Positions 19,353 through 62,492 of a DNA stretch of 64,000 nucleotides are shown here, piece after piece. The translations under genes were made by a program, and so were the position numbers. Below the pieces are notes generated by a model, which ran no database searches, had not been told where the DNA came from, and worked only from the letters and a program-made list of their open reading frames with translations. The stretch is from a virus: the IMG/VR virus record IMGVR_UViG_3300013117_000371, one strand, 5' to 3'. The first letter of the stretch is position 1, and the number at the start of each line of letters is the position of its first letter.

Positions 19353-19570
19353 TGGTCACCATGCCAACATCAATAAAAGAGGAGCTCCTCGAGGGCGTCC
19401 CCAACTTGCTCACTGACGCCCCCCATATCCACACCCGCTGCTCAAAATGCGGGCGTACGGACTCCACCTACCGGTTCTCCGCCGGGGAGGTAGGTGAGCT
19501 CCTTGAAGTTGAGGTATGCCTCCACTGCGGAAACGAGAAGGGGGCTGCCCCTATGATCCCGCAAAGATAA
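19307..19570 (+). CDS. small zinc-ribbon protein antisense to the tail operon
   Basis: CSKC...CLHC; fills the only ~200-bp gap in the - strand operon; start 19307 or 19361. Confidence 0.5.
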   Translation: MTNQKDQSSPKSDTPLVTMPTSIKEELLEGVPNLLTDAPHIHTRCSKCGRTDSTYRFSAGEVGELLEVEVCLHCGNEKGAAPMIPQR

Positions 19571-22500
19571 TCATCGAGGAGGGCACCTCTACCCGCCAAG
19601 TACGGTCCACCGTCAGCTCATCGCCAAACCGCAAGTGGCGGTTCCTCTCAAGGTCCTCATAGTACCAGAAAATCATCGTATCGGCATCGTAGTCGATACC
19701 CAACGGCGTGAGCACCCCCAGGATGTCTGAGAGCCGCACCGGCCGCCCGCTAGTTACCAGTTCAATAACCCGCTCCCTGATCCTCGCCTGCGCCGACGGG
19801 ATCACGGCGTCGGTGTCCCCCGTGTAGATGACCGGGCCCACCCCTACTTGCAGCAGCGGCTTTTGCTTCCCCATCATGTTGTCGGCCGTGGCTCGCACGG
19901 AGGAGGAGGACAGGACCGCCTGTACGCTCTCAACGACCGGCGCCTCATAATAGTGGATGTCGAAGGCGTAGCGAGCCACAATGATGTCGTTCCCGTTCTC
20001 GTCTACCACGTAGGGGGACAGGTACATGTGTGGGTCCTCGTTGGCCCCAAACGAGTACTCCTTGTCGGTGGAGAGGCTGAAACCCGCCATGTAGTAGAAG
20101 TCCTGAATGCCGAGGTATGTGTTCCCCGCCAGAAAGGAGGAGGGGGCGTCCTGCATGGATTGCACCTCCACGTCCATGTAGTAGAACCCGTACTCCGTGT
20201 TGAGGGCCATCTCTGCCGGCGTCAGTGACACCACCCCGGTCCGTATGAAGACGCCGACCATCGCTTGGTCACCGGTGGCCCCACTGGAGAATACTGTGTC
20301 CACCGTGAACGAGGTCTCGTCTATGCTGATGATGGTGTGGTTCCCTTTGAGTTCCTCATTGAGGGTGTCGTTGGTCATGTTGGCCAACAGCCCCAAGTCG
20401 GTGACGGCGGTGCCCCCGGTTACGGTCACCTTCTGCGTGGAGACCAGGTACATACGGAACAGGTCCCCTTGGGCCCGCACGATGACGTCGATGCCGAACC
20501 CGTCCTCAATTTGCCCGGAGATGCCGTCGGCGTCATCCAACGTGAGTGGGTCAGTGCCTACGAAGTAGATAGTCTTGGCGTTCCCGCCCACTGCCAACGT
20601 CAGCGACTTCCCGGCTACGTCACAAGTCGAAGCGAGGGAGGAGCTGATGATAGCTGAGTACTTCAGCAGCACTATGTCCCCCGGCTTCAGGCGCAGCTCC
20701 CCAAAGTCAAGGGTAGCGGAGTTGGTACTGATGGTGCTGGTCGCCCCCCCACTGACGTCGATGACGAGCTCCGTATGCGCGTCCTCCAGGGTGTACAGCT
20801 CCTTGTGATCCATGTGGGGGCTGTAGGTGTAGGCCCCCAAGTAGAAGATTGTTGTCAGGGCGGGTGTGAACCACCCGACCATGGCCTCCAGCGGGTGCTC
20901 AAAGTAGAGTCGGACGGTGGCCACTTGCGCAGCGTGGATCTCGAAGGGGACGTCGTCCTCGTCCACTGTGGCGTACCCGTAGGGGGAGTACAGGATGTAC
21001 GACTGCTCGTCGTCTACGCTGTACTCCGCCAGGAGGATGCGGGCGGAGTAGTTGTTGCCGGCCCCGTGGAGGATGAGTACGTCCCCCTCCTTGACCCCCA
21101 TTTCCTCGACGTCTCCCGACCAGGCGAATAACCCCAAGCTATTACTGAACGCCCCGGCCGGCGGAGGCACCAGGTGAGCAACGCTGCCCAGGTAGTCCCC
21201 CAATGACCCCTCCTCTTCATCCGGCGGGATGATGACATTGGGGCCGTCGGTGACACTGTCGCCCATTACTCGGCAGGCTAGGGGGTCCCGGTAGTACAGG
21301 TTGATAGCGGTAGTCCCGGTGGCCGCCCGTAACTCGACGTGGTCGATACGGGAGATAGGAGCGTTCACCCCCGCGTCAGTGGAATAAATCTCGTACTCTA
21401 CGTCCGTGTCGAACCCGCTCACAGTAGTGGTCAATAGGACGATGAGCCCTCCGCTGTGGAGGGACTGAATTTCGTAGGCCCCCTTCCCTATGTCCGACAA
21501 GATTTCGAGGGTGTCCCCCGGTACCGTAGACGCGGGGGCAGCCGTCCCCAGGATGACGTACTTGGAGAACCCCACGGTCCCGTCCGTCCCCGCCTTCTTC
21601 AAGTTCTTGACGGAGAGCAAGTCCACTTCGTGGTTGACGTACAAGGTGACCGGCTGGTTGGTGCCGGAGTCCCCCATGTCCTCACTCAGGCGGGCCCCGG
21701 TTTCGGACAGCGCCAGCACCCGGTACACCTGGCGGGGGTCACGATCGTCGATCTCCAACGTAATGATGCTGGGGATCATCGCTGAGTAGTCTTCAGTGGG
21801 GTCCGGGTAGCCCGCTGCCAGGTCCGAATTGAAAACGACGGATGCCAACGTCATCGTGTCGTTCCCTGAGGTCCACGTGGCCAACGCTGTGGCGTAGGGA
21901 ACCAAGTCGTACACTCCGTCGAAGGCGCCCACCGAGGCTTCCTCTGTCGTGTGCATGTAGACATCTGTGCAGCCGCCCAAATGGAGGGTGCCGCTCTCCG
22001 TGGACTGTGCAGTCCCATCCGGGAGCATGGCAGTGATGAGGAAGTCGTTGGCGGTGGCCACTCGTCGAGCTTGCCAGTACCCTGTGGTGCCCCCTGCCAA
22101 GCTCAGCAAATTGGAGGGGTCGACCAGAATAACCCAATCCAAGTTGTCCTGAGGGGTGAGGTCGTCATCGTACTCCCCGTCGGCTCGACGGTAGACTACC
22201 CAGTCGGTGAACAGGAGGGCGTTCCCCGGGCCGTAGATGGTGTAGTCATTCCCGGCGGCAAACAGCCCGCTCCACTCGGCGCTTTCCAGAATAAGAGCGG
22301 ACACCGTGAAGGTATCCACTGTGGCGAATCGGTCAACGTCAGCGTCGAAATAAAGGTCCCCTTGCTGCACCCCATTCGCTACGAAGTTCCCATCGGCGTC
22401 TGTGATTGCGTAAGATGCGGGGGTAACCGTGTCCGCTACTCCTGAACAACGCACTGTCGGAGAAGCCGGTGCCGACGCTGGGTCGACCTTAGTCAAGTAG

Positions 22501-24035
22501 AGGCGGCCGGAGGATACGTAGGATACATTGAACTCCACGGGAAGCCCCGCCACCATCCCCACCAGGCGGTCCCCTACCTGTACGGGTTTTGTGGCAGTGA
22601 AGTCGATTTGGTTCGCTCCAATGGCGGCAGTAAACTCAATGGCCCCGCCCCTATGCAGAGCTAAGTAATTAGTCTCCGACGGGTCCGCATTGGTAGGGCT
22701 CATCTTGATGATTTCGATGGGGCCCTTTATCACCGCCATGTAATTCCCGCCAATGATGGGGACGTCGAGGATAGTATGCTCGTCGTAGGTCACCCCATTG
22801 TAGATAAGAAGGAGATCCCCCGCTTCAACCAGGGACATATTCTCCCCAGCTTCCATCAGCCCCACGTAGTGGGGGATGACGCAGCCGTTAGGGGCCGTGT
22901 ACTCCACCGAGGTGGAGCCTGCTTCCCCCCAGGGACAGTCGGCGGGGGTGTAGCTATCGAAGTCCGCCGACCCGGCGCCCAACGTAGTTATGGTGTACTC
23001 GAACCCGTTGATGACTATCTTGGTAGGAGCGTAGCCTTCACTGATGTTGGGCGGCATAACGGCGGAGAAGTCCCCCGTGATCTGGTAGGCGTAGGGGATG
23101 GTCGCCAGGGTCCCGCTGCCGGGGGCCCACGCCACCAATGTCCCCGTCCCGTTGCCTACTGGCAAGGTCGCCAAAGTCGTAGCCGTGTACGTCAGGATGT
23201 CCCGGTACATGAGGATGTCGCCGTTGCCCACCACGAAAATCTCGGAGATGGCCGGGAACAACTCCATAACTCGGGAGATGATGCCGGAAGAGGTAATAGG
23301 GGCATGCTCTGACACCCAATCCGTGAGGCGGTCCACGTACTCGTCAATGGTCTCCCGGTTGGTGCCGGGCGTCGCCGAGGAGGGGTTCGACGCCCACACG
23401 GCGCCTACCACGCCGCTGACTCCGATGATCTGAGTCGGGCCGATATTGTAGGCCTCCCCCTCTTCCACGGCTTCGAACGTGGCTTCGACGTAGTAGTAGT
23501 TCCTATCCCGGTTCTGCGCCACCTGCTCGGGGGTGAACTTGTAGAACTCAATGGGCATATAGCTGAGCCCCCCCGCAGTGTAGGCGGAGGCGCCGAAGTT
23601 CACCTCGATGACCCGGGGGGCGCGGGCATACAGACGGACAGTAACCCGAGCTTTTGAGCCCTGCTGCCGCATGACTTGGAAGACGCTGGCCAGCCCCTCT
23701 ATCTCCTCCTCCGTGAGGTAGTCCTTGTAGTAGAGGCTCTGCGCCATTTTCAACCGGAGGATCTCCCGGCGCAGGGGGTCGATGATCACCTTGAAAGGGG
23801 TGACCACGATGTCGGAGTAGGCGCTGAGCTCCGTGAAGTCCATCTCCGGGAACTCCGACTGGAGCAAGTCCACTACAAAGTCCTTGACGTCGGGAGTGTA
23901 TGGATCGTCCCCGAACCGTTCCACCAGGGGGGCGATGACCTTGGTGTAAACGGCCGACCCCTCGGCGGTGGGGATGGACTCGTCGTACTCTGTGTAGAGC
24001 TCCTGTACGAATTGTATGAGTTTGTCCCTCTCCAT
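19551..24035 (-). CDS. baseplate J/gp6-like wedge protein with large insertion (1494 aa)
   Basis: N-terminal A.V.VRLY, VEATFEAVEEGEAYNI, PG.NRET..EY..RL and V.GNGD.LM.RD baseplate-J-like motifs. Confidence 0.75.
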   Translation of the reverse strand: MERDKLIQFVQELYTEYDESIPTAEGSAVYTKVIAPLVERFGDDPYTPDVKDFVVDLLQSEFPEMDFTELSAYSDIVVTPFKVIIDPLRREILRLKMAQSLYYKDYLTEEEIEGLASVFQVMRQQGSKARVTVRLYARAPRVIEVNFGASAYTAGGLSYMPIEFYKFTPEQVAQNRDRNYYYVEATFEAVEEGEAYNIGPTQIIGVSGVVGAVWASNPSSATPGTNRETIDEYVDRLTDWVSEHAPITSSGIISRVMELFPAISEIFVVGNGDILMYRDILTYTATTLATLPVGNGTGTLVAWAPGSGTLATIPYAYQITGDFSAVMPPNISEGYAPTKIVINGFEYTITTLGAGSADFDSYTPADCPWGEAGSTSVEYTAPNGCVIPHYVGLMEAGENMSLVEAGDLLLIYNGVTYDEHTILDVPIIGGNYMAVIKGPIEIIKMSPTNADPSETNYLALHRGGAIEFTAAIGANQIDFTATKPVQVGDRLVGMVAGLPVEFNVSYVSSGRLYLTKVDPASAPASPTVRCSGVADTVTPASYAITDADGNFVANGVQQGDLYFDADVDRFATVDTFTVSALILESAEWSGLFAAGNDYTIYGPGNALLFTDWVVYRRADGEYDDDLTPQDNLDWVILVDPSNLLSLAGGTTGYWQARRVATANDFLITAMLPDGTAQSTESGTLHLGGCTDVYMHTTEEASVGAFDGVYDLVPYATALATWTSGNDTMTLASVVFNSDLAAGYPDPTEDYSAMIPSIITLEIDDRDPRQVYRVLALSETGARLSEDMGDSGTNQPVTLYVNHEVDLLSVKNLKKAGTDGTVGFSKYVILGTAAPASTVPGDTLEILSDIGKGAYEIQSLHSGGLIVLLTTTVSGFDTDVEYEIYSTDAGVNAPISRIDHVELRAATGTTAINLYYRDPLACRVMGDSVTDGPNVIIPPDEEEGSLGDYLGSVAHLVPPPAGAFSNSLGLFAWSGDVEEMGVKEGDVLILHGAGNNYSARILLAEYSVDDEQSYILYSPYGYATVDEDDVPFEIHAAQVATVRLYFEHPLEAMVGWFTPALTTIFYLGAYTYSPHMDHKELYTLEDAHTELVIDVSGGATSTISTNSATLDFGELRLKPGDIVLLKYSAIISSSLASTCDVAGKSLTLAVGGNAKTIYFVGTDPLTLDDADGISGQIEDGFGIDVIVRAQGDLFRMYLVSTQKVTVTGGTAVTDLGLLANMTNDTLNEELKGNHTIISIDETSFTVDTVFSSGATGDQAMVGVFIRTGVVSLTPAEMALNTEYGFYYMDVEVQSMQDAPSSFLAGNTYLGIQDFYYMAGFSLSTDKEYSFGANEDPHMYLSPYVVDENGNDIIVARYAFDIHYYEAPVVESVQAVLSSSSVRATADNMMGKQKPLLQVGVGPVIYTGDTDAVIPSAQARIRERVIELVTSGRPVRLSDILGVLTPLGIDYDADTMIFWYYEDLERNRHLRFGDELTVDRTWRVEVPSSMIIFAGS

Positions 24036-29307: not shown

Positions 29308-29481
29308 CTACTCCTCCGCTGTCTGCGCCTGGTCAATGAGGCCCTGCACTTCATCGTACTTATCCTCCCGGGCCAAAATGTGGTCAAGGGCGTCCTTCTC
29401 CGCCCGGACCCGTTCGAGCTCCAGCTCGGCCCACTCTTTCACCGCTGTAGCTACCGCTTTGGCCTCCTCAAGGCTTGGCAT
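29308..29481 (-). CDS. 57-aa acidic coiled-coil protein (below the ORF-track cutoff)
   Basis: MPSLEEAKAVATAVKEWAELELERVRAEKDALDHILAREDKYDEVQGLIDQAQTAEE*; AGGAGG upstream; abuts the next gene. Confidence 0.65.
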   Translation of the reverse strand: MPSLEEAKAVATAVKEWAELELERVRAEKDALDHILAREDKYDEVQGLIDQAQTAEE

Positions 29482-30421
29482 GTGCCTCTACCCTCCTGCG
29501 CAGCTTCTGCCGGTACCGGGAGACCTGGGAAGACGAAATCCCCAACCGCTGCGCTATGGCCGTGTTCTTGGCGTTTGGGTTTTTGTCCAGAAAGCGGTAC
29601 ACTGCCAGTTCGGTCCCTGTCAATTCCGGGGGCAGGAGGGACCAAACCTCCTTGACTCGGCTAGCCCGAGTCCCGTGTGGTACCTCTTCCTTGGTCTGCA
29701 TATGGACAGGCTTCACCTCCTTTTGGAGGAGGACCACATCCGTCTCCTTCACACGAGCTTGGCTGGCTATTTCTGCCGTTGTCGGCGCCCGCCCCAACCG
29801 ATTCTCAAGCACCCGCTCGGCTCTCCGAACTTTGCCTACTTGCTGGAGGCGTTGCTCCGGGACCCGCACCGGGGTAGCTCGCCGCAGCAGGGGGCGATGC
29901 GCTCCCTTGAGGGAGCCAACCACGAAAGTGGAAGCCCGCACTCCCCGACTGGGGTCGTACTTACGCAACGCTTTCAGTCCTGCCTTCATGAACTCGGCCT
30001 GGGGGATAACGGGCCCCCCTCTACTGGCGAAGTCCTGCGCCCTGCCGGCGACGACCTTACGCAGCTCGGCAATTACCGGGGGGAGGTAGCGCTTGTTGTG
30101 CTTCTTCTGTTGCCAGTTTGTGGTAGCCACAGTCAAAGGGTCCAAGGCCGCCGCCACCTTCTCCAAGGAGTCCTGAAAGCCAATCAGGACCGGGTCCACT
30201 AATTGGCCGCGTTCGCCGTCCCCGGCGATGACGAAGAGGGGTGTTTCCTGGTGCAGTGCCTGGAACCTGGCCAACTTCTGGAGTTCCTCACCCGCAACTG
30301 CGCAAGGAACTTCCCCCACTACTCTACCGTACCGGGTGTGCGCTACCATCAGGGTGGGGGAATCGCTCTCCTCGTCCCGTACACGGACTATGAACACTTG
30401 GCGCTTCTTCCTAACTCCCAT
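29468..30421 (-). CDS. phage sigma-70-family factor (regions 2-4) with ~90-aa N-terminal extension
   Basis: KYDPSRGVRASTF (2.3), PVRVP...LENRLGRAPTTAEIA (3.0), AIAQRLGISSSQVSR (4.2 HTH, SigF/SigB-like). Confidence 0.85.
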   Translation of the reverse strand: MGVRKKRQVFIVRVRDEESDSPTLMVAHTRYGRVVGEVPCAVAGEELQKLARFQALHQETPLFVIAGDGERGQLVDPVLIGFQDSLEKVAAALDPLTVATTNWQQKKHNKRYLPPVIAELRKVVAGRAQDFASRGGPVIPQAEFMKAGLKALRKYDPSRGVRASTFVVGSLKGAHRPLLRRATPVRVPEQRLQQVGKVRRAERVLENRLGRAPTTAEIASQARVKETDVVLLQKEVKPVHMQTKEEVPHGTRASRVKEVWSLLPPELTGTELAVYRFLDKNPNAKNTAIAQRLGISSSQVSRYRQKLRRRVEAHAKP

Positions 30422-30430
30422 GGCTTCCTC

Positions 30431-33400
30431 CTATCCGGTCAGGGCGCCTGTGTCGTCGCCCGTAGCGTGCAGGTCCTCTGCATCCACAGCAAACAAGTAG
30501 TTGTAGTGCTCCCTGGCGTGCGGTACATTCTCCACCATCCGCTTGATCGCTGTGAAGACCCGTGCCGCCCGAGGACCGCGGGGGTCAATGTCGCTGGTGT
30601 TGATCGTAGTCACCCCTTCAGGAATGAACACCTCCTCCTCCAATTGAAGCACACCGCCCAGCGCCGTCTCGTTAAGAGCAGCGTTGACCGCCGCTGCTAC
30701 GGCGCTCTTCTTGAACTTCCCGGTTATCCAGGAGTCCTCCTCAAGGGGGGAGTGTAGCACGTATGCGCTTGGGACGAAATTCACTTGCTCCGGGGGCTTG
30801 ATTATCGCCCGACGTTCCAAAGTAGGATTACGTAAGGCTTCGTCTTGCGCCATGAAGAAGGTCAAGATAATATCCATCTGTGAGTAGTCGGCCACGGCTT
30901 CGGCGCCCAGCCTCCTCGCTACTACATCGTACATGCTGTCCACGCCCCACAGGGGCTGGTACACCCTCTCCCCGATGGAGTCGTTGTTGTACATCGGGTC
31001 CAACCAAGGCGGCCGGCACAGCTGGTCCAGGGACATCTGGTGCTCACTCTGGGACACAGGAGAACCCGTGGGGGTGTCCATCAACGCCACCACTTCCTCA
31101 ACATTCGTCCTGAACAGGGCTGTTTGGGTCTCGTAAATGCGCTTCCTAAGGTCGGCGGCCCGTTCCAGCGACGAAGCGGCAGCAGCTTGCTCACGGGCGC
31201 CTTCTTCCGCACTGGTGCCGAAAATATCTATGCTGTACTTCTTCTTTATTTGGCTCAGCGGCCCCCCCTCAGGGTCGCCCCCCGTCCCAGCAACGCTGAT
31301 CTCAGTCAGGGCTTCTTGCGCCCGGACCGTGGCTGTCCCAGCTACTTGCGCCTGGTGCGCTTTGTTCCCCAAGGCAACCAATCGATCTTTCTTTTTTCTG
31401 TCCGTCTCTACCGCAGCTTTGGCTGTGGCCTCAGCATAAATGTCCTGAAGGACCGACAACGTCTCTTGCTGCGTATCGGGAGCCAACACCGTTCCTTTCT
31501 CAATGGACGCCACCAGCTTGTTACGACTCCCCCGCCACTTCGCCGCAGCAGAGGCGTACGGGTCCCGCTTGTACATCCTCAGGTAGACCCCGATGTCCCG
31601 CCACTCCTCGTATGAGCGTACGTGTGTCACGTGCGTGGTCATCCCTATTGTCTTGGGGGTGATTGCCAAGTCAATCTGCCTAATCTGCCCCACTACCAAG
31701 GAGTTGGTGACCTTGTCGTCGCTGACTGTGTTGCGGATTTCAATAGCCACCGGCAGTCCAGCAATGAAGCGGGGATAGAAGTCCCCCACCAAGGAAGCAG
31801 TGCGGATGCCGAAGTACTGAGTCATGAACGAGGCATGGGCCACTCGTTGGAGGAAGGGGAAGCCTCGAGAGAGGGGGGACTTATCCAACAACTCCTGCAA
31901 ATCCGGGGGGGCACCCAATCCGATACCTTCATACTTATCGTTCGTCGAAGTTCCGCTGCTGGCTTCGAACTCAGCCAACCCCAACGCCTGGGTAATGGGC
32001 AAAGCCACCGGCTGCGGGCCCATGAAAATCTCATGGGGGAGTAAAGTGTACTTCCCCTTCAAGGTATCCTCGAGAATTCTCTTGCCCTGGTTGCCTTGAA
32101 GGTTGGGAGCCACCACCATGGTTTTCCCCTGGGAGCGGATGTACACTCCTTCAAACCCCACCTTCGGGCCGATGAGGAGCAACCGGGTAGGCTCGGCAGA
32201 GTAGTTCCTCCCGGAGGTAAACGAGGTGTACATGGACTCCATGAACAGATTGCACGCCGGAGGGATTCCGAACCACAAGTCGGGGAGGAGGATCTCCTCG
32301 TGGTACCTGTCAACGAGCTCCACTGTCCTTTTGAACGTCCCGGAGGGGGCGCCATGCCCAATGAACGACAGCCACTTCTTGAGGTCGGCAATGGCCTTCT
32401 TGACCCGCCCCAGGGTTAAGTTCCATGCCGCTCGGTTGTCCTTTGCGAAAAGCACCTTGTCCGTACCCGAATAAGGCAGGGACTCATTCCACCTATGCAG
32501 GTCAGTAACGACGTGGGACAAGCTGCTCCTGACTTCCGCCGTCAGCGAGTGCAACCGGTCTGTTTGGGACTTCCGTTGGGCCTTCAACTTGGCGTCGTAG
32601 GTCTCCCCCGCCGGCGTCGTGGGATTTAACGCTACCATCCCGGAGAGGTACTGAGCAGTCAAGGTGTGGAGGGCGGTGTAAAGGAACACCTGTATGTCTG
32701 AAACTGTGGACATCTTCCCGCTGAGGTCCCACGCCAGGAAGATGTCGTGGGCCCTCTGCTTGATCATTTCCTTGCGTAAGGCCTCAAGGAAAGCCACGAA
32801 GTCCTGGTACTTCTGGAGGCCCTTCAGTCCTTTGTAGGCAGTTACGGTCTTTTGGACCTCACGAGCGGGGGTATACTTTGAGGCGCAGGAGACCACTGAT
32901 TGGTAATGGAGCCGCCGCAACAACGCCTGCTTGAGGGCGGCGTACGACAACGGCTGCTCCCCCCGAAACCCTTTCAGAAGTTTCTTCAAGAACTTCTTGG
33001 TGGACGGTAGGCGCATCAGCCTCTCTATTGTAGTGTCTCCTTCCGGAGCCACAATGCGCTGAAGTAAGTTCAACCGGTACTCAGCCATGCCGATGAAGTT
33101 GTCCATAGGTCGCAGGCGCTTTTTCCCCTTCTGGATGCCGGTGAACAACTCCATCAAGTGGATGAGGCCGCCCAACACCCCGTCCAAGTTTTGCGTAATC
33201 GGCCGGGTGAACAGCGCCTGCTGCACCGTCTCGTACTCGGGGATGGTGATGCCTCCGGAGAACGAGGCATACTTCTCCCCGACCTTGGTAGCAGTTTGTT
33301 TGAGCTCTGTGTCGTTCTCCTCCCGGTAGTCCCGGGACCGCTGAGAGAGGATATTCAGTAGCATCTTGGCCTGGTAGGACTGAGACGACGCACAACTGAG

Positions 33401-33679
33401 CACGGAAGAGCCTGCCCCCTGCGTGGCGTAGAACCGGTAGCCCATCATCTCCCCTTCGAAGGCCACAATGCCGTCCGGGTATTCCAGGGAGTCGTAGTAG
33501 TACAGCTGAATGTACGACCGGCCCAGGAAGCGGGGGTCTCCCCCAGTCACCAACTGGATCTGCATGGCCAAGGGGGCGCCAGTGGCGGTGGCGTATACCC
33601 CTCGGGCTGAGACCATGGGGAACTCCACGCCCTCTACAAAACATTTGACTTCTTGCCGTTTTGCTGCATGCAGTGCCAT
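30431..33679 (-). CDS. baseplate hub / tail-associated protein (about 1082 aa)
   Basis: Two genes downstream of the tape measure region; KCFVEGVEFP N-terminus; FIAGLPVAI...GQIRQI....T hub-like C-terminal motif; ATG at 33679 follows GGGAAAG (track start 33862 overlaps the upstream gene). Confidence 0.55.
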   Translation of the reverse strand: MALHAAKRQEVKCFVEGVEFPMVSARGVYATATGAPLAMQIQLVTGGDPRFLGRSYIQLYYYDSLEYPDGIVAFEGEMMGYRFYATQGAGSSVLSCASSQSYQAKMLLNILSQRSRDYREENDTELKQTATKVGEKYASFSGGITIPEYETVQQALFTRPITQNLDGVLGGLIHLMELFTGIQKGKKRLRPMDNFIGMAEYRLNLLQRIVAPEGDTTIERLMRLPSTKKFLKKLLKGFRGEQPLSYAALKQALLRRLHYQSVVSCASKYTPAREVQKTVTAYKGLKGLQKYQDFVAFLEALRKEMIKQRAHDIFLAWDLSGKMSTVSDIQVFLYTALHTLTAQYLSGMVALNPTTPAGETYDAKLKAQRKSQTDRLHSLTAEVRSSLSHVVTDLHRWNESLPYSGTDKVLFAKDNRAAWNLTLGRVKKAIADLKKWLSFIGHGAPSGTFKRTVELVDRYHEEILLPDLWFGIPPACNLFMESMYTSFTSGRNYSAEPTRLLLIGPKVGFEGVYIRSQGKTMVVAPNLQGNQGKRILEDTLKGKYTLLPHEIFMGPQPVALPITQALGLAEFEASSGTSTNDKYEGIGLGAPPDLQELLDKSPLSRGFPFLQRVAHASFMTQYFGIRTASLVGDFYPRFIAGLPVAIEIRNTVSDDKVTNSLVVGQIRQIDLAITPKTIGMTTHVTHVRSYEEWRDIGVYLRMYKRDPYASAAAKWRGSRNKLVASIEKGTVLAPDTQQETLSVLQDIYAEATAKAAVETDRKKKDRLVALGNKAHQAQVAGTATVRAQEALTEISVAGTGGDPEGGPLSQIKKKYSIDIFGTSAEEGAREQAAAASSLERAADLRKRIYETQTALFRTNVEEVVALMDTPTGSPVSQSEHQMSLDQLCRPPWLDPMYNNDSIGERVYQPLWGVDSMYDVVARRLGAEAVADYSQMDIILTFFMAQDEALRNPTLERRAIIKPPEQVNFVPSAYVLHSPLEEDSWITGKFKKSAVAAAVNAALNETALGGVLQLEEEVFIPEGVTTINTSDIDPRGPRAARVFTAIKRMVENVPHAREHYNYLFAVDAEDLHATGDDTGALTG

Positions 33680-33686
33680 CTTTCCC

Positions 33687-44687: not shown

Positions 44688-44993
44688 ATGCAAGCTCTCT
44701 ACGATTGGGTCATTGTCGAACGGTACATTCCTCAGGCTGGAATCACCCTGGAAATGCCGGATGAGACGAAGTTCATGGAGGCCCTTGCCGTCACCATGAG
44801 GGTGGTCTCCGCCGGCAAAATCTTCGGGCCGGAGGGTTGGGAGGAGCTGCCGGTCTCCGCCGGAGATGTTGTGTTGGCCTCCCTGGTAGGAGGAATCCGC
44901 ATCCGCAGCCGAGAAGGGGAGACACGTTTCGCTATTCGCTACAGTTACTTGATTGCCAAACTCGAGGAGGTCGCAAGCACCCATGAAGATTGA
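44688..44993 (+). CDS. groES: GroES-like co-chaperonin (101 aa)
   Basis: ALYDWVIVER (PLHDRVIVKR), AGITL (GGIVL mobile loop), VVSAG...LPVSAGDVVL (VLAVG...LDVKVGDIVI); directly upstream of groEL. Confidence 0.8.
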   Translation: MQALYDWVIVERYIPQAGITLEMPDETKFMEALAVTMRVVSAGKIFGPEGWEELPVSAGDVVLASLVGGIRIRSREGETRFAIRYSYLIAKLEEVASTHED

Positions 44994-56442: not shown

Positions 56443-56763
56443 CTATTGTAATGTTCTCAAGTTCTCAAGAAAGTCCACGTCACTCGTGGTCCGATCGGGC
56501 GAGCTTGCCTCCTCGCTGGCCTCACCCAGTGTGCTTCTCGGCGCCAACCTGTCAGCTAACTTCTCGATGGCCTCCCTCGGAAGTTCGGACAGGATGTCCT
56601 CGTCTGTTGACGAGGAATCAGAGAAGGTGGCTTTCACCCGAGCCACCGCTGCAGTCTTCTCCAGCTTGGTCCGGGCGGTCCGACCTTCTCGAATCTCAGC
56701 GGCTGCCGAACGGAGCAGCTCAGGGACCCCCTCCAGGGCGCCGGTCAATTCTGAAATCTTCAT
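56443..56763 (-). CDS. scaffold-like head protein with EKxA motifs
   Basis: LEKTAA, IEKLAD. Confidence 0.65.
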   Translation of the reverse strand: MKISELTGALEGVPELLRSAAAEIREGRTARTKLEKTAAVARVKATFSDSSSTDEDILSELPREAIEKLADRLAPRSTLGEASEEASSPDRTTSDVDFLENLRTLQ

Positions 56764-57173
56764 GACTGCCTCCTCCCCAGGTGAGCCCTGATCCGCTCCT
56801 TCAGCGCAGGGGTGATTCTGCGGGATGCCTGCTTCTCGAAGGGGCTGTCTTCCAACTGCGGAATCTCGCGCCCTTCCAGAAGCCGTTTTCCCTCAACCGA
56901 CAAGATGTCCTCCAGCTCAACGTCCGGACGAACAAAGGAAAGGGCGCCCACCACCCGTTCGACTGCCGAAGCAACCTTCTCCAGGTGCTCAGGGTCAAGG
57001 CCACTCTCGGACCCGCCCAAATCAGCCTCGATTCCCAGGGTGGAAAGAGCATCGTCTATGGTCGCGTTCTTTTCGATGCCTTCTTCCCTGTCCTCACGAG
57101 AGGCGCCAACTATGGCATCAGCCACCTCCACCGGGTTACGGTCGAGGAGCAATTCTGTCAGCGTCTTCCTCAT
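56760..57173 (-). CDS. scaffold-like head protein with three EKxA motifs
   Basis: IEKNAT, LEKVAS, FEKQAS. Confidence 0.65.
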   Translation of the reverse strand: MRKTLTELLLDRNPVEVADAIVGASREDREEGIEKNATIDDALSTLGIEADLGGSESGLDPEHLEKVASAVERVVGALSFVRPDVELEDILSVEGKRLLEGREIPQLEDSPFEKQASRRITPALKERIRAHLGRRQS

Positions 57174-57185
57174 GGGACTACCCTC

Positions 57186-57452
57186 CTATGCTGCCCGTTT
57201 CTTGCCGAGTCCGCGGCCGCCTACTGCGGCCGCTAGGAGCGCCCCCAGCCCGCCGACCTTGCGGCCGGCGCTGAGGTCTTTGAAGCCTACCTTGGCGCCC
57301 TTCTTCTTCGCCAGCGCCAGGAGGCCTTTGGCTCGCTTCGCTTTCAGGGTCTTCAGCCACCCCGCCTGCGCTTCGATGCCTTCGTCCTCTGCCTCAGCGA
57401 CTTTTTCCAGGCCGTCTTGGAAGCCTTGCTGGTACAGTTCTTCCAGGGTCAT
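57186..57452 (-). CDS. small head protein: acidic leader + polybasic glycine-zipper tail (88 aa)
   Basis: ATG 57452 with GGAGGAG; GFQDGLEKVA; VGGLGALLAAAVGG. Confidence 0.7.
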   Translation of the reverse strand: MTLEELYQQGFQDGLEKVAEAEDEGIEAQAGWLKTLKAKRAKGLLALAKKKGAKVGFKDLSAGRKVGGLGALLAAAVGGRGLGKKRAA

Positions 57453-57530
57453 CGGGGCTCCTCCTTCTCCGTGGACAGAGGGGGCCCTAAGGCCCCCATC
57501 CGTCACGTGAGTTTCTGCAACAGGCGCCTG

Positions 57531-58163
57531 CTACTTGCCGGCAGCGTAGCCGCCGGTGCCTGCCAACGCCGCCAGGAGGGCGCCGATGCCAATCTTGCCT
57601 TTGTGCTTCAGGCCGAGCTTCCCGGCCGCTCCGAGCTTGCTCTTGGCCTTGCCGAGCAGGGCGGAGGCCTTGCCTTTCAGCGCCTGCCGCCTCGCCATCC
57701 GGGCCTTGTACTTACCCAGCTTGCCCTTCTGCTTCTCACCGAAGAGCTGCGCCTTGAGGGCCTGAACCCGTGCGCTGGCGGCCTGCTTCTCCACGCCTTC
57801 GTCGGCCGCAGCACCCTCGTCGAGCGCTGCCTGGAAGCCCTTGCCATAGGCGTAGCCCATGCCAAACATCTCTTCCTGAGCCGCCTCCTTGTCAACGCCC
57901 TCTTCCGCCTCGCCCTCACCCAGGATTTCCATCAGGGCCTCGACCAGCTCCATGGCTTCCTCTTCCGGGATGCCGGCAGCGGCAAGGGCCTCGAGGGCTT
58001 CCTCGTCGTCCAGGTCGGCCAGGGACATATCGTCCTCACCCAGCACTTCCTGGACGCTTGCTACCTTCTCCAGGGTGCCTTCGAGCCCTGTTTCCTCGTC
58101 GGCCGCGGGCTCGGTGTCCGCCGCCTGAAGGGCCTCAATGATGTCCTTCTCTGTGATTTTCAT
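57531..58163 (-). CDS. scaffold/core head protein: acidic N-part, polybasic C-part (210 aa)
   Basis: ATG 58163 with AGGAGG; LEKVAS, VDKEAA, VEKQAA; IGIGALLAALAGTGG. Confidence 0.7.
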   Translation of the reverse strand: MKITEKDIIEALQAADTEPAADEETGLEGTLEKVASVQEVLGEDDMSLADLDDEEALEALAAAGIPEEEAMELVEALMEILGEGEAEEGVDKEAAQEEMFGMGYAYGKGFQAALDEGAAADEGVEKQAASARVQALKAQLFGEKQKGKLGKYKARMARRQALKGKASALLGKAKSKLGAAGKLGLKHKGKIGIGALLAALAGTGGYAAGK

Positions 58164-58240
58164 CTTCACTCCTCCTGACATGTTCTGTTGGTTTGACCAA
58201 GGTGGGTCTTAGCATCCGTAAATGCTCGCCTTACTCCTAA

Positions 58241-58269
58241 TGTATAACCTGCTGAGGAAGTCAGCGCAA
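58241..58269 (-). promoter_or_regulatory. possible sigma70-type promoter for the scaffold/capsid operon
   Basis: TTGCGC-17nt-TATACA, AT-rich UP-like tract upstream, GCTGA-5nt-TCAGC inverted repeat in the spacer. Confidence 0.45.
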
Positions 58270-58420
58270 GGAAAAACTTGCAAAAAAGTAAACGGGGGGA
58301 GAATTACTTAGCTCGCAGGCGCACTTTCTGGAACGCGGACGTCACCCACGGATGCGGGCGCCCGCGTACTCTTTTAAGGATCTTGGCAAACTCGCTCCCG
58401 GCCCAAATTCTCGTAGGCGC

Positions 58421-58741
58421 TTATTGCCCCATCTTTGGTTTTGCAGTCAACCCCATCCTTTCGGCTTTGGCCTTAGGGTTGAGCCCGGTTTGCTGCGTAG
58501 TTCCGCGACGAATATTGCTCAAGAGGCCCCCTGCCGGCTTCTGAACTCGTGGCCTGAGCACTTTCGGGCCGGCTCGAGTGCCTGCTATGATGGAAGGTAT
58601 TCGGGCGCCTCCGGCGCCCATCCGCTCTTTGCCCATAGCTACCGCCCGCAGCCCCGGAGTTTGAGCTACCATGCGGGCCATGCCCTCCTTATCCAACCCG
58701 TCTTCCAGGGCAGCCATGAAGCCGGCGACGAAAGGGTCCAC
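58421..58741 (-). CDS. small basic head protein with leader motif
   Basis: MDPFVAGFMAALEDGLDKEG then an R/K-rich body. Confidence 0.65.
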   Translation of the reverse strand: MDPFVAGFMAALEDGLDKEGMARMVAQTPGLRAVAMGKERMGAGGARIPSIIAGTRAGPKVLRPRVQKPAGGLLSNIRRGTTQQTGLNPKAKAERMGLTAKPKMGQ

Positions 58742-58742
58742 G

Positions 58743-60461
58743 TTACTCCCCCTCTTCCCGCAATTCCGGGTCGTTGGCCAGGCTGTGGAGCAAGGCGTAA
58801 GGCAGGGCCGTCGGCCGCAGGTCAGGCATAGGTGGGGGATTGATGACTGTCACTCGGGGGCCTTTGCTTCGTGCCCCCGCCAATGCCGCCAAGAGCGCCA
58901 ACTGCTCAGCGTTCGCTTCCTGGTTCTTGCTCGCTGTTCGAGCCATAAGCCACAGGGGGATGGTGAGACTGGGAGCAATCAGCAAAGTCGTCAAACCAGC
59001 TTGCTTCTCGATCCCCAACACTTCCCGGTCGCTGGCCAGGGCGTAGGGGGAGTCCCCCATCAAAGGAACAGCTACATCGGGCGCGGTCATGATCATGCCC
59101 AGGTAGTTCCGGTAGGCCCCCTCCAATTCAGCGTTCTTCTCAATCCCCCACTCCTCCAGCTCCGTTCGGGTATTGGAGAGAGTCTCCTCCGCCAGCGCCA
59201 AGCGGTCCAACAGACGTCGGAGGCGGGCACGTAGAATCTTGGGAAGGATAGAACGGTGCGGCGCCAGTTTGCGCTGCACGTGCCTGTCCGCAGAAACCCC
59301 CGGCTTGTCGGTACCGTCAACTTCTACAGGAGTGACCCCGTCAGGAAACGGAATCATGACTTGCTTCTTGATTATCAGGAGTCCTTGCTTCCTCTTCCCC
59401 TGCGCTCCAAGGAAAGCCGCTGTAAACTCCCGAGGGTCAAGCAGAACCTTGTTGCGTATGAGGGAGAGGATCAGCCCTGGGCCATGCTTGTCCCCCGCTG
59501 CCAGCAAAGCGCCGGGGTCGATGCTGGCTTCCTTGCTGAACATCTCCGCCATCTTCCTGATGAGGAAGCGCTTCTCCAACTGCGCCGGAGACGAACTGCG
59601 AAGGGCCGGAACTTTCCCAGCTTTGGCAATGGCGCCCTTGCGCACCAGTTCCCGCAACGCCGCCGTCACCCGAGCTTTGGGGATGCGGGAAGCAGGTACT
59701 CCCGAAGACATAGAGCCGTCTTTGGCCGCCACCTTCAGCAGCCCATGCGCTAAGGTGTCCGCCCCCTCGTCCACTGCCGAGATGTCATGGAACTTGGGGT
59801 AGAGATTGACCATGCAGGCCACTCGGCCGTTGGGCATGATGGTGCCAATGAACCGCCTATTGATGTGCAAACACGCCGGGTCCTCGTGGTGGCGCCGAGT
59901 ATTCCCACAAATCGGGCAGACGTCAGCAACAGCGTACATCCCCATGGACACGTCGAAGGGATGACCGCTGTCAATCCAATTCAAGATGTCCGGGTGGTCC
60001 TTGGCCAGCGGCTCTCGGAAGACTTTGACCAGCAGCTCAATCCAGTGCATCCCCCAGTTGTAGTTGGTGAAAATGACGTCGCCGTAGACCGGATGCCCCT
60101 TTTGCGGCTTGTTCTTGTGGTGGGCAAAAAACTTCCCATTGAGGAACGTACGGTACCCATAGGGGCGCTTAGCATATACTTTACAGGTCTGCCAGTTGGT
60201 CGGAGCCAGATGCTCCTCCAGGACAGCGTCGCCCCGGGAGTTGGGGCCCCAGTACTCGAATGCTCCAATGGGAATGATCACCATGTACGAGTAGGCAGGG
60301 TGCGGTTTGATCAACTTGATCTGGCTCTGTAACGCCGCCGAGAAATGAGACTTAGCTCCAGCTGGGAGGGCTGCCGCCGTCTTTTCCAAACCGGTCAGGG
60401 TGAACACTCGCTGGTGGTGGTGATCGTCAAAGGCGGGGACGTCGAGTGCTTTGTGGAGCAT
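58743..60461 (-). CDS. prohead maturation serine protease (HK97/assemblin-like fold probable) with C-terminal extension
   Basis: His (AHHKN), Ser in DVSMG, CxxC...CxH, FHDISAV..GAD resembling the EVS.V..PA motif of prohead proteases. Confidence 0.7.
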   Translation of the reverse strand: MLHKALDVPAFDDHHHQRVFTLTGLEKTAAALPAGAKSHFSAALQSQIKLIKPHPAYSYMVIIPIGAFEYWGPNSRGDAVLEEHLAPTNWQTCKVYAKRPYGYRTFLNGKFFAHHKNKPQKGHPVYGDVIFTNYNWGMHWIELLVKVFREPLAKDHPDILNWIDSGHPFDVSMGMYAVADVCPICGNTRRHHEDPACLHINRRFIGTIMPNGRVACMVNLYPKFHDISAVDEGADTLAHGLLKVAAKDGSMSSGVPASRIPKARVTAALRELVRKGAIAKAGKVPALRSSSPAQLEKRFLIRKMAEMFSKEASIDPGALLAAGDKHGPGLILSLIRNKVLLDPREFTAAFLGAQGKRKQGLLIIKKQVMIPFPDGVTPVEVDGTDKPGVSADRHVQRKLAPHRSILPKILRARLRRLLDRLALAEETLSNTRTELEEWGIEKNAELEGAYRNYLGMIMTAPDVAVPLMGDSPYALASDREVLGIEKQAGLTTLLIAPSLTIPLWLMARTASKNQEANAEQLALLAALAGARSKGPRVTVINPPPMPDLRPTALPYALLHSLANDPELREEGE

Positions 60462-60464
60462 TTG

Positions 60465-60926
60465 TCAGACCTCCCCCATCATCTTCTGATGGAGAGTCGC
60501 CGCCTTCATGGGGTCAAACACTCCTTTGTCCGCTGGCTGCGCCAACGCCAGGACTACGGAGGGATCAATTCCCTCCTGCTCAAAGGCCATCCCCTTGTTC
60601 ATGTACCCAGCTGCCGCCAGCGGGTCCCGGGAAAGGGTTGGGTTCATCCGACGCAAGGACATGAAGTGCTTGTATGCCCGTACTTGCTTCCTCCGCAAGC
60701 TGGGGGACTCACCAAGTGCTCTCTGGAAATCCCCGTCCCGAGTAAGGCGCTCATGCGCAGCCACCCCACCGGCTATCGCAGCCGCCGCAGCCAAGGACGT
60801 ACCCAGAAGGACCCCAGTGGGGCCGGCCGCACTAGCGATTCGAGCGAGGGTCTTCCTCTTTTTCGGGGTGCGCCGCCACGCCTTGCTGGCCTTGGCGAGT
60901 AGCTTGCCTATCCTTCCTCCTGGCAT
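60465..60926 (-). CDS. basic head-module protein with hydrophobic G/A segment (153 aa)
   Basis: ATG 60926 with GGAGGAG; GVLLGTSLAAAAAIAGGVAA; F.SL...NP.LS.DP.AA. Confidence 0.7.
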   Translation of the reverse strand: MPGGRIGKLLAKASKAWRRTPKKRKTLARIASAAGPTGVLLGTSLAAAAAIAGGVAAHERLTRDGDFQRALGESPSLRRKQVRAYKHFMSLRRMNPTLSRDPLAAAGYMNKGMAFEQEGIDPSVVLALAQPADKGVFDPMKAATLHQKMMGEV

Positions 60927-60937
60927 GTTGGCTCCTC

Positions 60938-61423
60938 CTAATAGTTGGCGGGCACGTACGACGGGCGCTGGCCCCTGCTGGCCATGTAGGCGCCCCCTGC
61001 GACCAATGCGCCGCCTGCGCCTACTGCCGGCCACAGCCACTTACGCGCTGGTGCGGCTGGTTGCTCCTTGGCGGCCCGCTGGAAAAGCCCAGCAAAGCGA
61101 CCCTGGCCACTCTGAATGCGCTTCATCCGGGCAGCGTGTCGAGCTTCTCTGATTTCTGCTTTGCGGGCGTACTTGCCGGTGACTGCCTCTACTCGAGCTG
61201 TGCCCTTGGCGGCCACTTCCTTCCTCCGCATTGCCCTTTTTGTTCTGGCCATAGTTGCCTTCCCCCGAACCTTCGCTGCTACTACTTTTTTACGGGCGGC
61301 CGCCCCTGCTGCTCGGCGAGCTGCCCAGGCACTACGAAAGCCCTTCATGAAGGCGTCCTTCTCAAGGCCGTCTTCGCTGCGGTCTGCTATGAACTGTGCA
61401 AGTACTGCTTTGTCAATGGCCAT
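60938..61423 (-). CDS. polybasic head-module protein with leader motif (161 aa)
   Basis: TGATG coupling at 61423; EDGLEKDA; R/K/A-rich; WLWPAVGAGGALVAGG. Confidence 0.7.
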   Translation of the reverse strand: MAIDKAVLAQFIADRSEDGLEKDAFMKGFRSAWAARRAAGAAARKKVVAAKVRGKATMARTKRAMRRKEVAAKGTARVEAVTGKYARKAEIREARHAARMKRIQSGQGRFAGLFQRAAKEQPAAPARKWLWPAVGAGGALVAGGAYMASRGQRPSYVPANY

Positions 61424-61764
61424 CACGTCCCCCAAATTTGCATGGCTTTCCGGCTGGCGGCCATGTTCGCCCGCATCCCAGTGATAAATTCATGGGCAAA
61501 GAGCCCCGCAATACCCAACCGCATCGCTCTCCCCGCGGTTGCCCCTATCCCACCCCGTAACGCCTTTCGTACGGCCGACTGCGCCGGGCGAGTAGCGATT
61601 GTGTACGGGTTGACCGGGGAGGAAGTTACCTTGCGCAGATACCCCGCTACCCGGTCATACCGAGTCTGTGGTTTGAAAAGGCGCACCACAGCGACCTTCT
61701 CCAGCTCCTTCCGGCGTTGGTATTCCGCAACCGCAGCCGCAAGCAATGGCCCTACTTGACCCAT
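61423..61764 (-). CDS. basic head-module protein with leader motif
   Basis: ELEKVA at residues 20-25; GGIGATAG..LGIAGL. Confidence 0.65.
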   Translation of the reverse strand: MGQVGPLLAAAVAEYQRRKELEKVAVVRLFKPQTRYDRVAGYLRKVTSSPVNPYTIATRPAQSAVRKALRGGIGATAGRAMRLGIAGLFAHEFITGMRANMAASRKAMQIWGT

Positions 61765-62492
61765 GCCCCCTCCAACTTGGCGGAGGCGTCGGTATACGCA
61801 GCCACAGCCGTCAAAAATGATGTCATCGACGCCACCACCGGGTGCTCTGCTGACGGGGTCATTCCAGTATACTGGGCCACCTTGTCGAAGTCTATGTCGG
61901 CTGTCTTCTCCAAGGCCCCCTGCATAACTCGGGTAAGGACGGTGGACCCGTGCCCCCGGTCCAAGACTACCGCCAGCCCCATGAGTTCCTCAGGAGGCAA
62001 CTTCCGCAGCGCTGCGTTGACCGTTCCGGTCAGATCCCCCAAGCTCTCACTGAGAACCTCGGCGGCTGCCGTCTTCTTCAAATGGCGGTGCCCTGGGAGC
62101 TTGTCCCGCAGAGGGATTTTCGGCTTCCTCTTGGCCTTTTTCGCCTTGGAGGTGTGCGACACCGGCCCTACTCGGCGCAACTCCGGGAGGGTGAGGGGTG
62201 GGCCCTTCGCTTCCTTCCTCGCCCTCCCCCCCAGCCGTACCTTGGCCAAGGAGGCCAATTTGAAGCGGACCAAGCGATGCTTCTTGAACGCGTTCTTGTG
62301 GACTGCCCGATTGACCATTTGACAAAGGGTGCGGACGTGAGTATCCGTCAAAGCTTTCCCCTTGTGTATTCGCGCGAACCGGGCAACATTTTCCGCAACC
62401 AACGTTGACAGGTCCTTCTTCCCTTCATTGTGGAAAAACGCCTTGACTATGGTGATTGCCATTTCGGTGAGAAGTTCAGGATACACTTCCAT
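61752..62492 (-). CDS. head-module protein with three KxA motifs
   Basis: LKKTAA, LEKTAD, FDKVAQ; GGAGG RBS. Confidence 0.7.
   Translation of the reverse strand: MEVYPELLTEMAITIVKAFFHNEGKKDLSTLVAENVARFARIHKGKALTDTHVRTLCQMVNRAVHKNAFKKHRLVRFKLASLAKVRLGGRARKEAKGPPLTLPELRRVGPVSHTSKAKKAKRKPKIPLRDKLPGHRHLKKTAAAEVLSESLGDLTGTVNAALRKLPPEELMGLAVVLDRGHGSTVLTRVMQGALEKTADIDFDKVAQYTGMTPSAEHPVVASMTSFLTAVAAYTDASAKLEGAWVK

What the first reader, a model, noticed from the sequence alone, without database searches (positions are those of the whole stretch)
29468..30421. Phage sigma factor carries the head-protein leader/cleavage motif: candidate virion-packaged, protease-matured sigma
Seen: the sigma-70-family ORF sits inside the baseplate operon and has an ~90-aa N-terminal extension. 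The extension ends in DPVLIGFQDSLEKVA (residues 76-90; GFQDSLEKVA at 30152-30181). This nearly duplicates GFQDGLEKVA (57396-57425) in a head-module protein 27 kb away and resembles MDPFVAGF..LEDGLDKEG of another. Cleavage after A90 would release a 227-aa regions 2-4 protein, about the size of SigF/FliA. Established: T4 gp21 and phiKZ gp175 cleave packaged, later injected proteins (T4 Alt/IPs, phiKZ vRNAP subunits), and Bacillus pro-sigmaE/K are activated by N-terminal proteolysis. Inference: this sigma is made late, encapsidated, matured by the prohead protease and injected to redirect host RNA polymerase immediately after infection. I know of no described virion-packaged sigma factor.
Basis: partly seen in the sequence, partly recalled or inferred. 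Interest (0 to 1): 0.92.

Follow-up and report, generated by a model that had tools for sequence, protein, structure and literature searches.

The report
Phage sigma factor with head-protein leader
A large uncultured phage encodes its only sigma factor inside its tail/baseplate genes, and the protein carries the short leader motif that marks the phage's protease-processed head proteins, so it is probably loaded into the capsid, trimmed and injected; a cultured distant relative (Salmonella phage Arash) already has its sigma in purified virions.

Summary
ORF 29468-30421(-) is a sigma-70-family protein. Its first ~90 residues have no counterpart in other sigmas and end in GFQDSLEKVA, a 9/10 copy of the leader of a small head-module protein 27 kb away.

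[LIVM][ED]KxA occurs 24 times in six frames of the 145-kb record, 14 of them in the 5.4-kb head module. That includes three sites in the putative maturation protease. The sigma site ranks 14th of ~42,000 proteome positions (0.095 expected by chance outside the head module). It is kept in four orthologues (one has LLK). Similar leaders are about 12-fold enriched at the N-termini of distant sigma homologues.

- A virion sigma is already on record: phage Arash, a distant relative with the same gene order, protease, capsid protein and motif, has sigma Gp10 and RNAP beta/beta' in its virion proteome (PMC10585845).
- The likely partner is therefore the phage's own packaged RNA polymerase, not the host's. 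I did not verify that enzyme here.

Packaging and cleavage in this phage are inferred, not shown, and the cut position is unknown. Earlier follow-ups in this scan reported this lineage's RNAP plus sigma on other genomes. I found no mention of a leader on the sigma in their summaries or in my paper searches.

The parts
29468..30421 (-). Sigma-70-family gene, 317 aa; the only sigma found in the 145-kb record
30197..30421 (-). N-terminal add-on domain (res 1-75), beta-rich and found only in close orthologues. It holds a second motif-like site, L47-Q-K-L-A51, at 30269-30283.
   Evidence: AF2 strands 5-15, 23-27, 36-39, 62-68, 74-82 at pLDDT ~70-78. No homologue covers it beyond the 54-62% identical orthologues. 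Second site is LEKLA/LEKFA/LQKTA in 3 of the 4 orthologues.
30152..30196 (-). Internal leader DPVLIGFQDSLEKVA (res 76-90), with core LEKVA at 30152-30166. Candidate capsid-targeting and protease site.
   Evidence: PSSM 15.6 bits, rank 14 of ~42,000 positions. D76, P77, G81 and K88 invariant in 5 orthologues. Residues 84-91 have pLDDT <50.
29471..30151 (-). Predicted mature sigma (res 91-317, or 88-317 if cut after E87). Region 2 is about res 110-187, region 3 res 195-238, region 4 HTH res 269-309.
58743..60461 (-). Putative head maturation protease, 572 aa. Invariant H114, H115, S172. Own motif sites at res 25 (GLEKTA), 241 (GLLKVA), 440 (GIEKNA) and 484 (GIEKQA).
   Evidence: PHROG 18299 matched by 5 of 8 family members, best E 5.8e-13. 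34% identical to Arash virion protein gp222, E 2e-25. Alignment; sites.
57186..57506 (-). Small basic head-module protein whose leader ...LYQQGFQDGLEKVA (57396-57425) is the 9/10 match to the sigma leader
56443..62492 (-). Head-module block of small proteins plus the protease carrying 15 [LIVM][ED]Kx[AG] sites
   Evidence: same pattern in relatives L008, L009, L010
54704..55861 (-). Major capsid protein, with variant site GEGLAKVA at res 22-29
   Evidence: Homologous to Arash MCP gp226, E 2e-8; site scores 14.7 bits
30431..33655 (-). ~1074-aa virion protein directly upstream of sigma; weak collinear similarity to Arash gp8 ('cell wall hydrolase, structural protein')
   Evidence: synteny
29308..29481 (-). 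57-aa acidic ORF overlapping the sigma stop, conserved in position in relatives (57/61/57/53 aa)
19551..24035 (-). Baseplate wedge (Baseplate_J-like) protein, 1494 aa, in the same co-oriented gene block
   Evidence: PHROG 6, 1.9e-13; Pfam Baseplate_J, 2.3e-5; similar to Arash gp13

Best explanation
This is the lineage-specific sigma factor of a large, mostly uncultured group of ~180-kb myophages, of which Salmonella phage Arash is the only cultured member I compared.

Proposed mechanism (all steps inferred unless marked):
1. The gene is made late, as part of the tail/baseplate operon.
2. Residues 76-90 are an internal copy of the short leader (aromatic/GF ... [LIVM]-E-K-x-A) that marks the capsid protein, the protease itself and a dozen small basic head proteins.
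3. The leader takes the pro-sigma into the prohead. The maturation protease then cuts at or next to LEKVA, and perhaps also at LQKLA (res 47-51). This leaves a 227-230-aa regions 2-4 sigma, the same extent as Arash Gp10.
4. The trimmed sigma is ejected with the DNA. It gives promoter specificity to the co-packaged phage RNA polymerase, or less likely to host core enzyme, at the start of the next infection.

Shown here: sigma identity, the motif and its statistics, conservation, synteny, and homology to the Arash system.
For: - Motif distribution: 14 of 24 six-frame hits in 145 kb lie in the 5.4-kb head module. There are 60 sites in four related head modules and 17 in Arash gp218-225.
- Self-sites in the protease at its N-terminus, domain end and C-terminus, with the motif Lys invariant even in 27%-identical family members.
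- The sigma site scores 15.6 bits. Only 3 non-head proteins reach that score, against 0.095 expected from shuffles.
- The site is kept as LEK/LEK/MEK/LEK/LLK in 5 orthologues, despite a 9-aa insertion next to it in one of them.
- Distant sigma homologues carry N-terminal leaders such as NPVEDFLSFCSLEKVA. Strict PSSM hits: 8 against 0.89 expected, about 12 times the rate in sigma cores.
- In the nearest outgroup, a LigD-like ligase is fused to sigma with WEKSAS exactly at the junction, in the same gene neighbourhood.
- AF2 places the site in a pLDDT<50 linker between a beta-rich domain and the sigma core.
- Arash: same gene order, homologous protease, MCP and sigma. Sigma Gp10, RNAP beta and beta' are in the virion proteome (PMC10585845).
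- There is no room for an own promoter (9-nt gap), and promoter-like and terminator-like sites are at chance level.
- Precedent: the 201phi2-1 vRNAP beta loses a 275-aa propeptide to the prohead protease, while its SPN3US homologue is unprocessed (PMC5694885).
Against: - There are no protein data for this phage; packaging and cleavage are inferred.
- Arash Gp10 has no leader and shows 100% coverage, so sigma can enter virions without one.
- One orthologue has LLK instead of LEK. If Glu is the P1 residue that site would not be cut, although the protease's own mid-site shows the same LLK/IEK alternation.
- AF2 puts DPVLIGF in the last strand of the N-domain, so part of the resemblance could be structural.
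- The protease assignment is indirect. AF2 failed (pLDDT 47), there is no Pfam hit, hhalign to T4 gp21 gave probability 0.2%, and the Atlas lead to S77/S80 is only 0.90-0.91.
- The ligase-sigma fusion is a single 6.4-kb contig.
- I could not read the phage RNAP: it is not in the 145-kb record.
Confidence: 0.55

Rival explanations
1. The leader works on sigma, but not as a cleaved cargo tag. Either it docks sigma to scaffold, portal or RNAP without cleavage, or the phage protease activates a pro-sigma in the cytoplasm to time late transcription, as with Bacillus pro-sigmaE/K.
For: The invariant positions are K and A rather than the Glu, and E can be L, A, T or V. Arash sigma is packaged without a leader. 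The N-domain could be auto-inhibitory.
Against: - The same motif sits at the N-termini of the MCP, the protease and many small head proteins, where removal of a propeptide is the usual reading.
- The short 15-25-aa leaders of relatives are unlikely inhibitory domains.
- A sigma encoded mid-operon among late structural genes cannot easily be the trigger for late transcription.
Confidence: 0.2
2. Sigma is a normal intracellular phage sigma for middle or late genes and is not packaged. The leader is an evolutionary relic or a by-product of shared ancestry with head proteins.
For: Many phage sigmas act only inside the cell (PMC7824862). About three quarters of distant homologues lack a clear motif.
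Against: - The site is conserved across orthologues that are only ~35-40% identical in the extension.
- It is enriched over shuffles and over sigma cores.
- The Arash virion proteome contains the homologous sigma at high spectral count.
Confidence: 0.15
3. The resemblance is chance or structural. DPVLIGF... would be the sigma region 1.2 element (DPVRMYL-like), which lies ~40 residues before region 2.1, and LEKVA an accidental match.
For: D76 lies 40 residues upstream of the region 2.1 start, the same spacing I recall for primary sigmas (own knowledge, not tested). A single LEKxA is expected ~0.5 times in the non-head proteome by composition.
Against: - A 9/10 identity over 10 residues is not reached by shuffled sigma.
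- The PSSM site is expected 0.095 times.
- AF2 models res 74-82 as a beta-strand of a separate domain, not a helix on region 2.
- Homology to every other sigma starts only at res ~98-103.
- Leaders recur in distant relatives.
Confidence: 0.08

Closest known systems
Salmonella phage Arash sigma Gp10 with virion RNAP Gp206/Gp216 (OQ632216; PMC10585845)
   Same: - Homologous sigma: 28% identity over res 109-220, E 8e-13.
- Same gene order: large protein, ~68 aa, ~470 aa, ~1100 aa, sigma.
- Homologous protease (gp222) and MCP.
- Same x-E-K-x-A motif in head genes.
- Sigma detected in purified virions.
   Different: - Arash Gp10 is 234 aa and starts at about our residue 88, so it has no N-domain and no leader.
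- The Arash RNAP is split into gp206 + gp216.
- The paper does not discuss how sigma gets into the particle.
T4 capsid-targeting sequence of internal proteins/Alt, removed by gp21; phiKZ-group head and ejection proteins processed by gp175/gp245 (PMC9026906, PMC5694885)
   Same: - A short shared leader on unrelated proteins.
- Protease self-processing.
- Cargo enzymes, including vRNAP subunits in one member, lose N-terminal propeptides.
- S-L-E in sigma fits the phiKZ S/A/G-x-E rule (cites SLE-13).
   Different: - The motif here has invariant K-x-A after the Glu, and the Glu is replaceable.
- The protease shows no profile similarity to T4 gp21 and has no Pfam family.
- The cargo is a sigma-70-family factor, which the jumbo-phage review I read reports as absent from phiKZ-like (group 1) phages.
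Bacillus pro-sigmaE / pro-sigmaK
   Same: A sigma made with an N-terminal pro-sequence that must be removed (own knowledge).
   Different: - Their pro-sequences are 20-27 aa and are cut by SpoIIGA/SpoIVFB at membranes.
- There is no homology of the pro-region or the protease.
- There is no link to a capsid.

Membership tests
Sigma-70 family | Region 3 and region 4 HTH | tested here: met
   Sigma70_r3 36.2 bits (cut-off 25.3); HTH_24 30 bits over res 269-309; PHROG 351, 7.7e-12
Sigma-70 family | Region 2 (core binding, -10 recognition) | tested here: inconclusive
   Sigma70_r2 scores only 16.1 bits, below the cut-off of 24. However, the model aligns over ~250 columns to sigmaS/A/32/B chains at Foldseek prob 1.0.
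Arash-type phage sigma (Gp10 lineage) | Sequence homology plus position after the ~1100-aa virion protein | tested here: met
Arash-type phage sigma (Gp10 lineage) | Presence in purified virions | not testable with these tools
   Shown only for Arash itself
Prohead-protease substrates with a capsid-targeting leader (T4 IP/Alt, phiKZ type) | Leader/cleavage motif shared with head proteins of the same phage | tested here: met
Prohead-protease substrates with a capsid-targeting leader (T4 IP/Alt, phiKZ type) | Actual cleavage by the prohead protease inside proheads | not testable with these tools
   Needs proteomics or co-expression
T4 gp21 / phiKZ gp175 protease families (S77/S80), for ORF 58743-60461 | Sequence or profile similarity | tested here: not met
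   hhalign against T4 gp21 gives prob 0.2% and there is no Pfam hit at E<=10. Only an Atlas feature lead at 0.90-0.91. I therefore file it only under PHROG 18299 'head maturation protease'.
Bacillus-type pro-sigma | Homologous pro-sequence and a SpoIIGA/SpoIVFB-type protease | not tested
   The extension matched nothing outside the close orthologues. No search for such proteases was run. This is an analogy only.

The most novel reading that the evidence does not exclude
This phage lineage injects a complete transcription holoenzyme: its own beta-beta' RNA polymerase plus a sigma loaded as a pro-protein. The x-E-K-x-A leader would be a modular cargo code. Anything fused upstream of the sigma leader (the 75-aa domain here, a LigD-type ligase in a relative) would be carried into the capsid and released by the maturation protease.
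Probability: 0.35. Interest if true: 0.85.

Novelty: new variant of a known kind. Interest (0 to 1): 0.68.

Why it matters
Packaged RNA polymerases are known (N4, phiKZ group, crAss-like), but none of those is described as using a sigma. If a sigma-70-family factor is delivered in the particle together with a bacterial-type core, early phage transcription would not depend on host RNA polymerase or host sigma factors. It would also use a promoter code that can be read from the genome.

The shared leader gives a sequence-level way to predict the injected proteome of a very large, almost unstudied phage group. It also suggests a natural tag for loading foreign proteins into capsids.

The idea is directly testable in phage Arash and its relatives.

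Tried and rejected
- Relatives in IMG/VR: none found for sigma, the sigma alignment or the protease.
Walking in the window's own genome failed because no gene with that exact product was on record.
- Pfam RNAP models and a DFDGD scan found nothing in the 145-kb record.
- A search with Arash Gp206 returned only Arash-like enzymes in its top 120 and did not identify this phage's RNAP.
- The AF2 model of the protease was too poor to search (pLDDT 47). A PDB profile search gave only chance hits.
- N-domain: no sequence relatives. Atlas structural neighbours (ROK, Ppx/GppA, transposase fragments; TM 0.47-0.61 by query over ~70 residues) are too weak to name a fold.
- Promoter hunt by intergenic 9-mers gave only RBS-like and G-rich words.
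- Region 1.2 reading considered and rejected.
- An apparently missing 441-aa gene upstream of sigma was an artefact of my greedy ORF choice. The gene is at about 33687-35150(-).

Full report
**What is there**

The window is bases 12380-76379 of a 145,296-bp IMG/VR phage record judged 79% complete. A fuller ~184-kb assembly carries the same sigma protein.

ORF 29468-30421(-) encodes 317 aa.
- It matches Pfam Sigma70_r3 above threshold and a C-terminal winged HTH.
- It matches PHROG 351 'RNA polymerase sigma factor'.
- Sigma70_r2 matches only weakly, at 16 bits.
- An AlphaFold model (mean pLDDT 72) hits sigmaS, sigmaA, sigma32, sigmaB and WhiG chains at Foldseek probability 1.0.
- It is the only sigma-like gene in the record.

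**The extension and the motif**

A full HMMER scan of 1.84 billion representatives gave 2845 hits. Apart from the close orthologues, they align only from residue ~98-103 onward, where an invariant Trp lies. Residues 1-90 are therefore an add-on.

The add-on ends in DPVLIGFQDSLEKVA (res 76-90). GFQDSLEKVA (30152-30181) matches GFQDGLEKVA (57396-57425) of a 106-aa head-module protein at 9 of 10 residues. Seven of the nine shared residues use different codons, so selection acts on the peptide and this is not a recent DNA copy. It is the best 10-mer match between sigma and the whole proteome, and none of 20 shuffled sigmas reached it.

**The motif is a head-module signal**

- [LIVM][ED]KxA occurs 24 times in all six frames of the 145 kb. 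Fourteen of these lie in window 56554-61913.
- Sites sit near the N-termini of the small basic proteins. The capsid protein has a variant, GEGLAKVA, at res 22-29. The 572-aa protease has four sites (res 25, 241 as LLK, 440, 484).
- Head modules of three related phages show the same pattern, giving 60 sites in all.
- In the protease family the Lys of the N- and C-terminal sites is invariant down to 27% identity.
- A PSSM built from the 60 sites scores the sigma site at 15.6 bits, rank 14 of ~42,000 positions. Only two other non-head proteins reach that score, both small and both outside the window. Shuffled non-head proteomes give 0.095 such sites.

**Conservation**

Four orthologues (54-62% identity) keep the site as LEK, MEK, LEK and LLK, followed by x-A. 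One of them has a 9-residue insertion right next to it. D76, P77, G81 and K88 are invariant. The LLK variant also occurs at the protease's own mid-site, where another relative has IEK.

A second motif-like site (LQKLA, res 47-51) is LEKLA, LEKFA or LQKTA in three of the four orthologues. The sigma core has none.

Gene order is conserved: ~1700 aa, 68 aa, ~450 aa, ~1050 aa, sigma, 57 aa, 300 aa, 300 aa, ~890 aa, 64 aa, 209 aa, ~1495-aa baseplate-J protein.

**Wider family**

Among 110 more distant sigma homologues with an N-terminal region:
- Many begin with leaders such as NPVEDFLSFCSLEKVA, NPVDEFLDALEGVEKEA or GFDKQA, placed 14-27 residues before the conserved Trp.
- Strict PSSM hits number 8 in N-regions, against 0.89 expected from shuffles. 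That is about 12 times the rate in the sigma cores.
- One of these relatives shows the same synteny.

The nearest outgroup (43% identity) is a 704-aa fusion of a LigD phosphoesterase and an ATP-dependent ligase to sigma, with WEKSAS exactly at the junction and the same downstream genes. It is a single 6.4-kb contig.

**Structure**

AF2 gives a beta-rich domain (res 5-82, pLDDT ~70-78), a pLDDT<50 stretch at 84-91 covering SLEKVAAA, and then the helical sigma core. This fits an exposed linker. It argues against my rival idea that DPVLIGF is sigma region 1.2.

**The protease**

ORF 58743-60461 has invariant His114, His115 and Ser172. Evidence for the assignment:
- PHROG 18299 'head maturation protease' is matched by 5 of 8 family members, best E 5.8e-13.
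- It is 34% identical to Arash virion protein gp222, E 2e-25.

Evidence that is missing or negative:
- Its AF2 model failed.
- Pfam found nothing.
- hhalign to T4 gp21 was negative.
- The ESM Atlas named S77/S80 clusters only as weak leads.

I therefore call it a head maturation protease of unassigned clan. The cut position is open: after Glu, as in phiKZ-type S/A/G-x-E sites (PMC5694885), or after the Ala.

**The experimental anchor**

- Arash is a 180.8-kb myophage whose purified particles contain RNAP beta Gp206 (the most abundant protein by spectral count), beta' Gp216, and 'RNA polymerase sigma factor' Gp010 with 100% coverage, 24 peptides and 467 spectra.
- Arash shares the gene order around sigma and has a homologous sigma, ~470-aa protein, protease and MCP.
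- It has 17 x-E/D-K-x-A/G sites in its head genes gp218-225.
- Arash Gp10 starts at about our residue 88 and has no leader. The predicted mature form here therefore equals a natural full-length sigma, but a leader is not needed for packaging in Arash.
- Such variation has a precedent: the 201phi2-1 vRNAP beta loses a 275-aa propeptide while the SPN3US homologue does not.

**Which polymerase**

The 145-kb record has homologues of Arash TerL, protease, MCP, helicase gp217, gp13 and gp236. It has none of the portal or of Gp206/Gp216. Since a portal is indispensable, the missing ~21% must hold it. Earlier notes of this scan place a 2012-aa single-chain beta-beta' gene beside the portal there. I could not read that DNA, so the partnership with a phage RNAP is inferred from Arash and from those notes.

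**Verdict**

The best reading (confidence about 0.55) is that sigma is a late-made capsid cargo carrying the lineage's head leader, trimmed by the maturation protease and ejected to serve the co-packaged phage polymerase.

Rivals are a leader used without cleavage or for cytoplasmic activation (0.2), a non-packaged sigma with a relic leader (0.15), and chance or structural coincidence (0.08).

A virion-associated sigma is already on record for Arash. What I found described nowhere is the leader on sigma, its spread through the family, and the passenger domains fused upstream of it. My paper searches returned no description of a packaged, leader-bearing sigma (for the one review I read).

Noticed in passing
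window 44953-46620 (+): A GroEL-type chaperonin gene (PHROG 5725, E 7e-94) sits on the opposite strand in the middle of the structural region.
   Followed up: no
window 29308-29481 (-): A 57-aa acidic, helix-prone ORF overlaps the sigma stop codon and keeps this position in all relatives (57/61/57/53 aa). It could be a sigma partner or anti-sigma. It has no family hits.
   Followed up: partly
P0016 (ENA contig of 6.4 kb, no DNA available): A LigD 3'-phosphoesterase plus ATP-dependent DNA ligase is fused in frame to the sigma orthologue, with WEKSAS at the junction. It is a single observation, so a possible assembly artefact.
   Followed up: partly
G000 108364-110169 (window coordinate 95985-97790, outside the window): A 601-aa helicase homologous to Arash virion helicase Gp217 (E 1.5e-42) has a leader-like GLGKLAEA near residue 30.
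   Followed up: no
G000 121308-122063, 107235-107549, 143922-144476 (outside the window): Three small proteins without family hits carry strong leader sites (GEGLEKEAG at res 21, EGMEKSAG at res 66, EDLEKVG at res 28). They are candidates for further capsid cargo.
   Followed up: partly
P0019, P0023, P0025, P0046, P0049, P0069 and others: Another set of distant sigma homologues has 60-170-aa basic N-extensions with a recurring V-x-V/R-x-H-x-R element instead of the EKxA leader.
   Followed up: no
L009 3935-6988: A relative's 1017-aa gene in the position of this phage's terminase carries intein and LAGLIDADG hits. The terminase homologue here (window ~63430-65184, 584 aa) is about 430 aa shorter, so probably has no intein.
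   Followed up: no
L002 1-133: The 179-kb relative has an IS605 OrfB/TnpB (Cas12f-like) gene next to the 1738-aa virion gene.
   Followed up: no
window 30431-33862 and 33687-35150 (-): The longest-ORF call of 1143 aa is over-extended. By homology the ~1074-aa gene starts near 33655, and a ~487-aa gene (Arash gp6-like) fills 33687-35150.
   Followed up: yes
window 47831-51337 (-): A 1168-aa protein has a Flagellin_IN motif just below the Pfam cut-off (21.9 against 22.7 bits) and is similar to Arash structural protein gp236.
   Followed up: no
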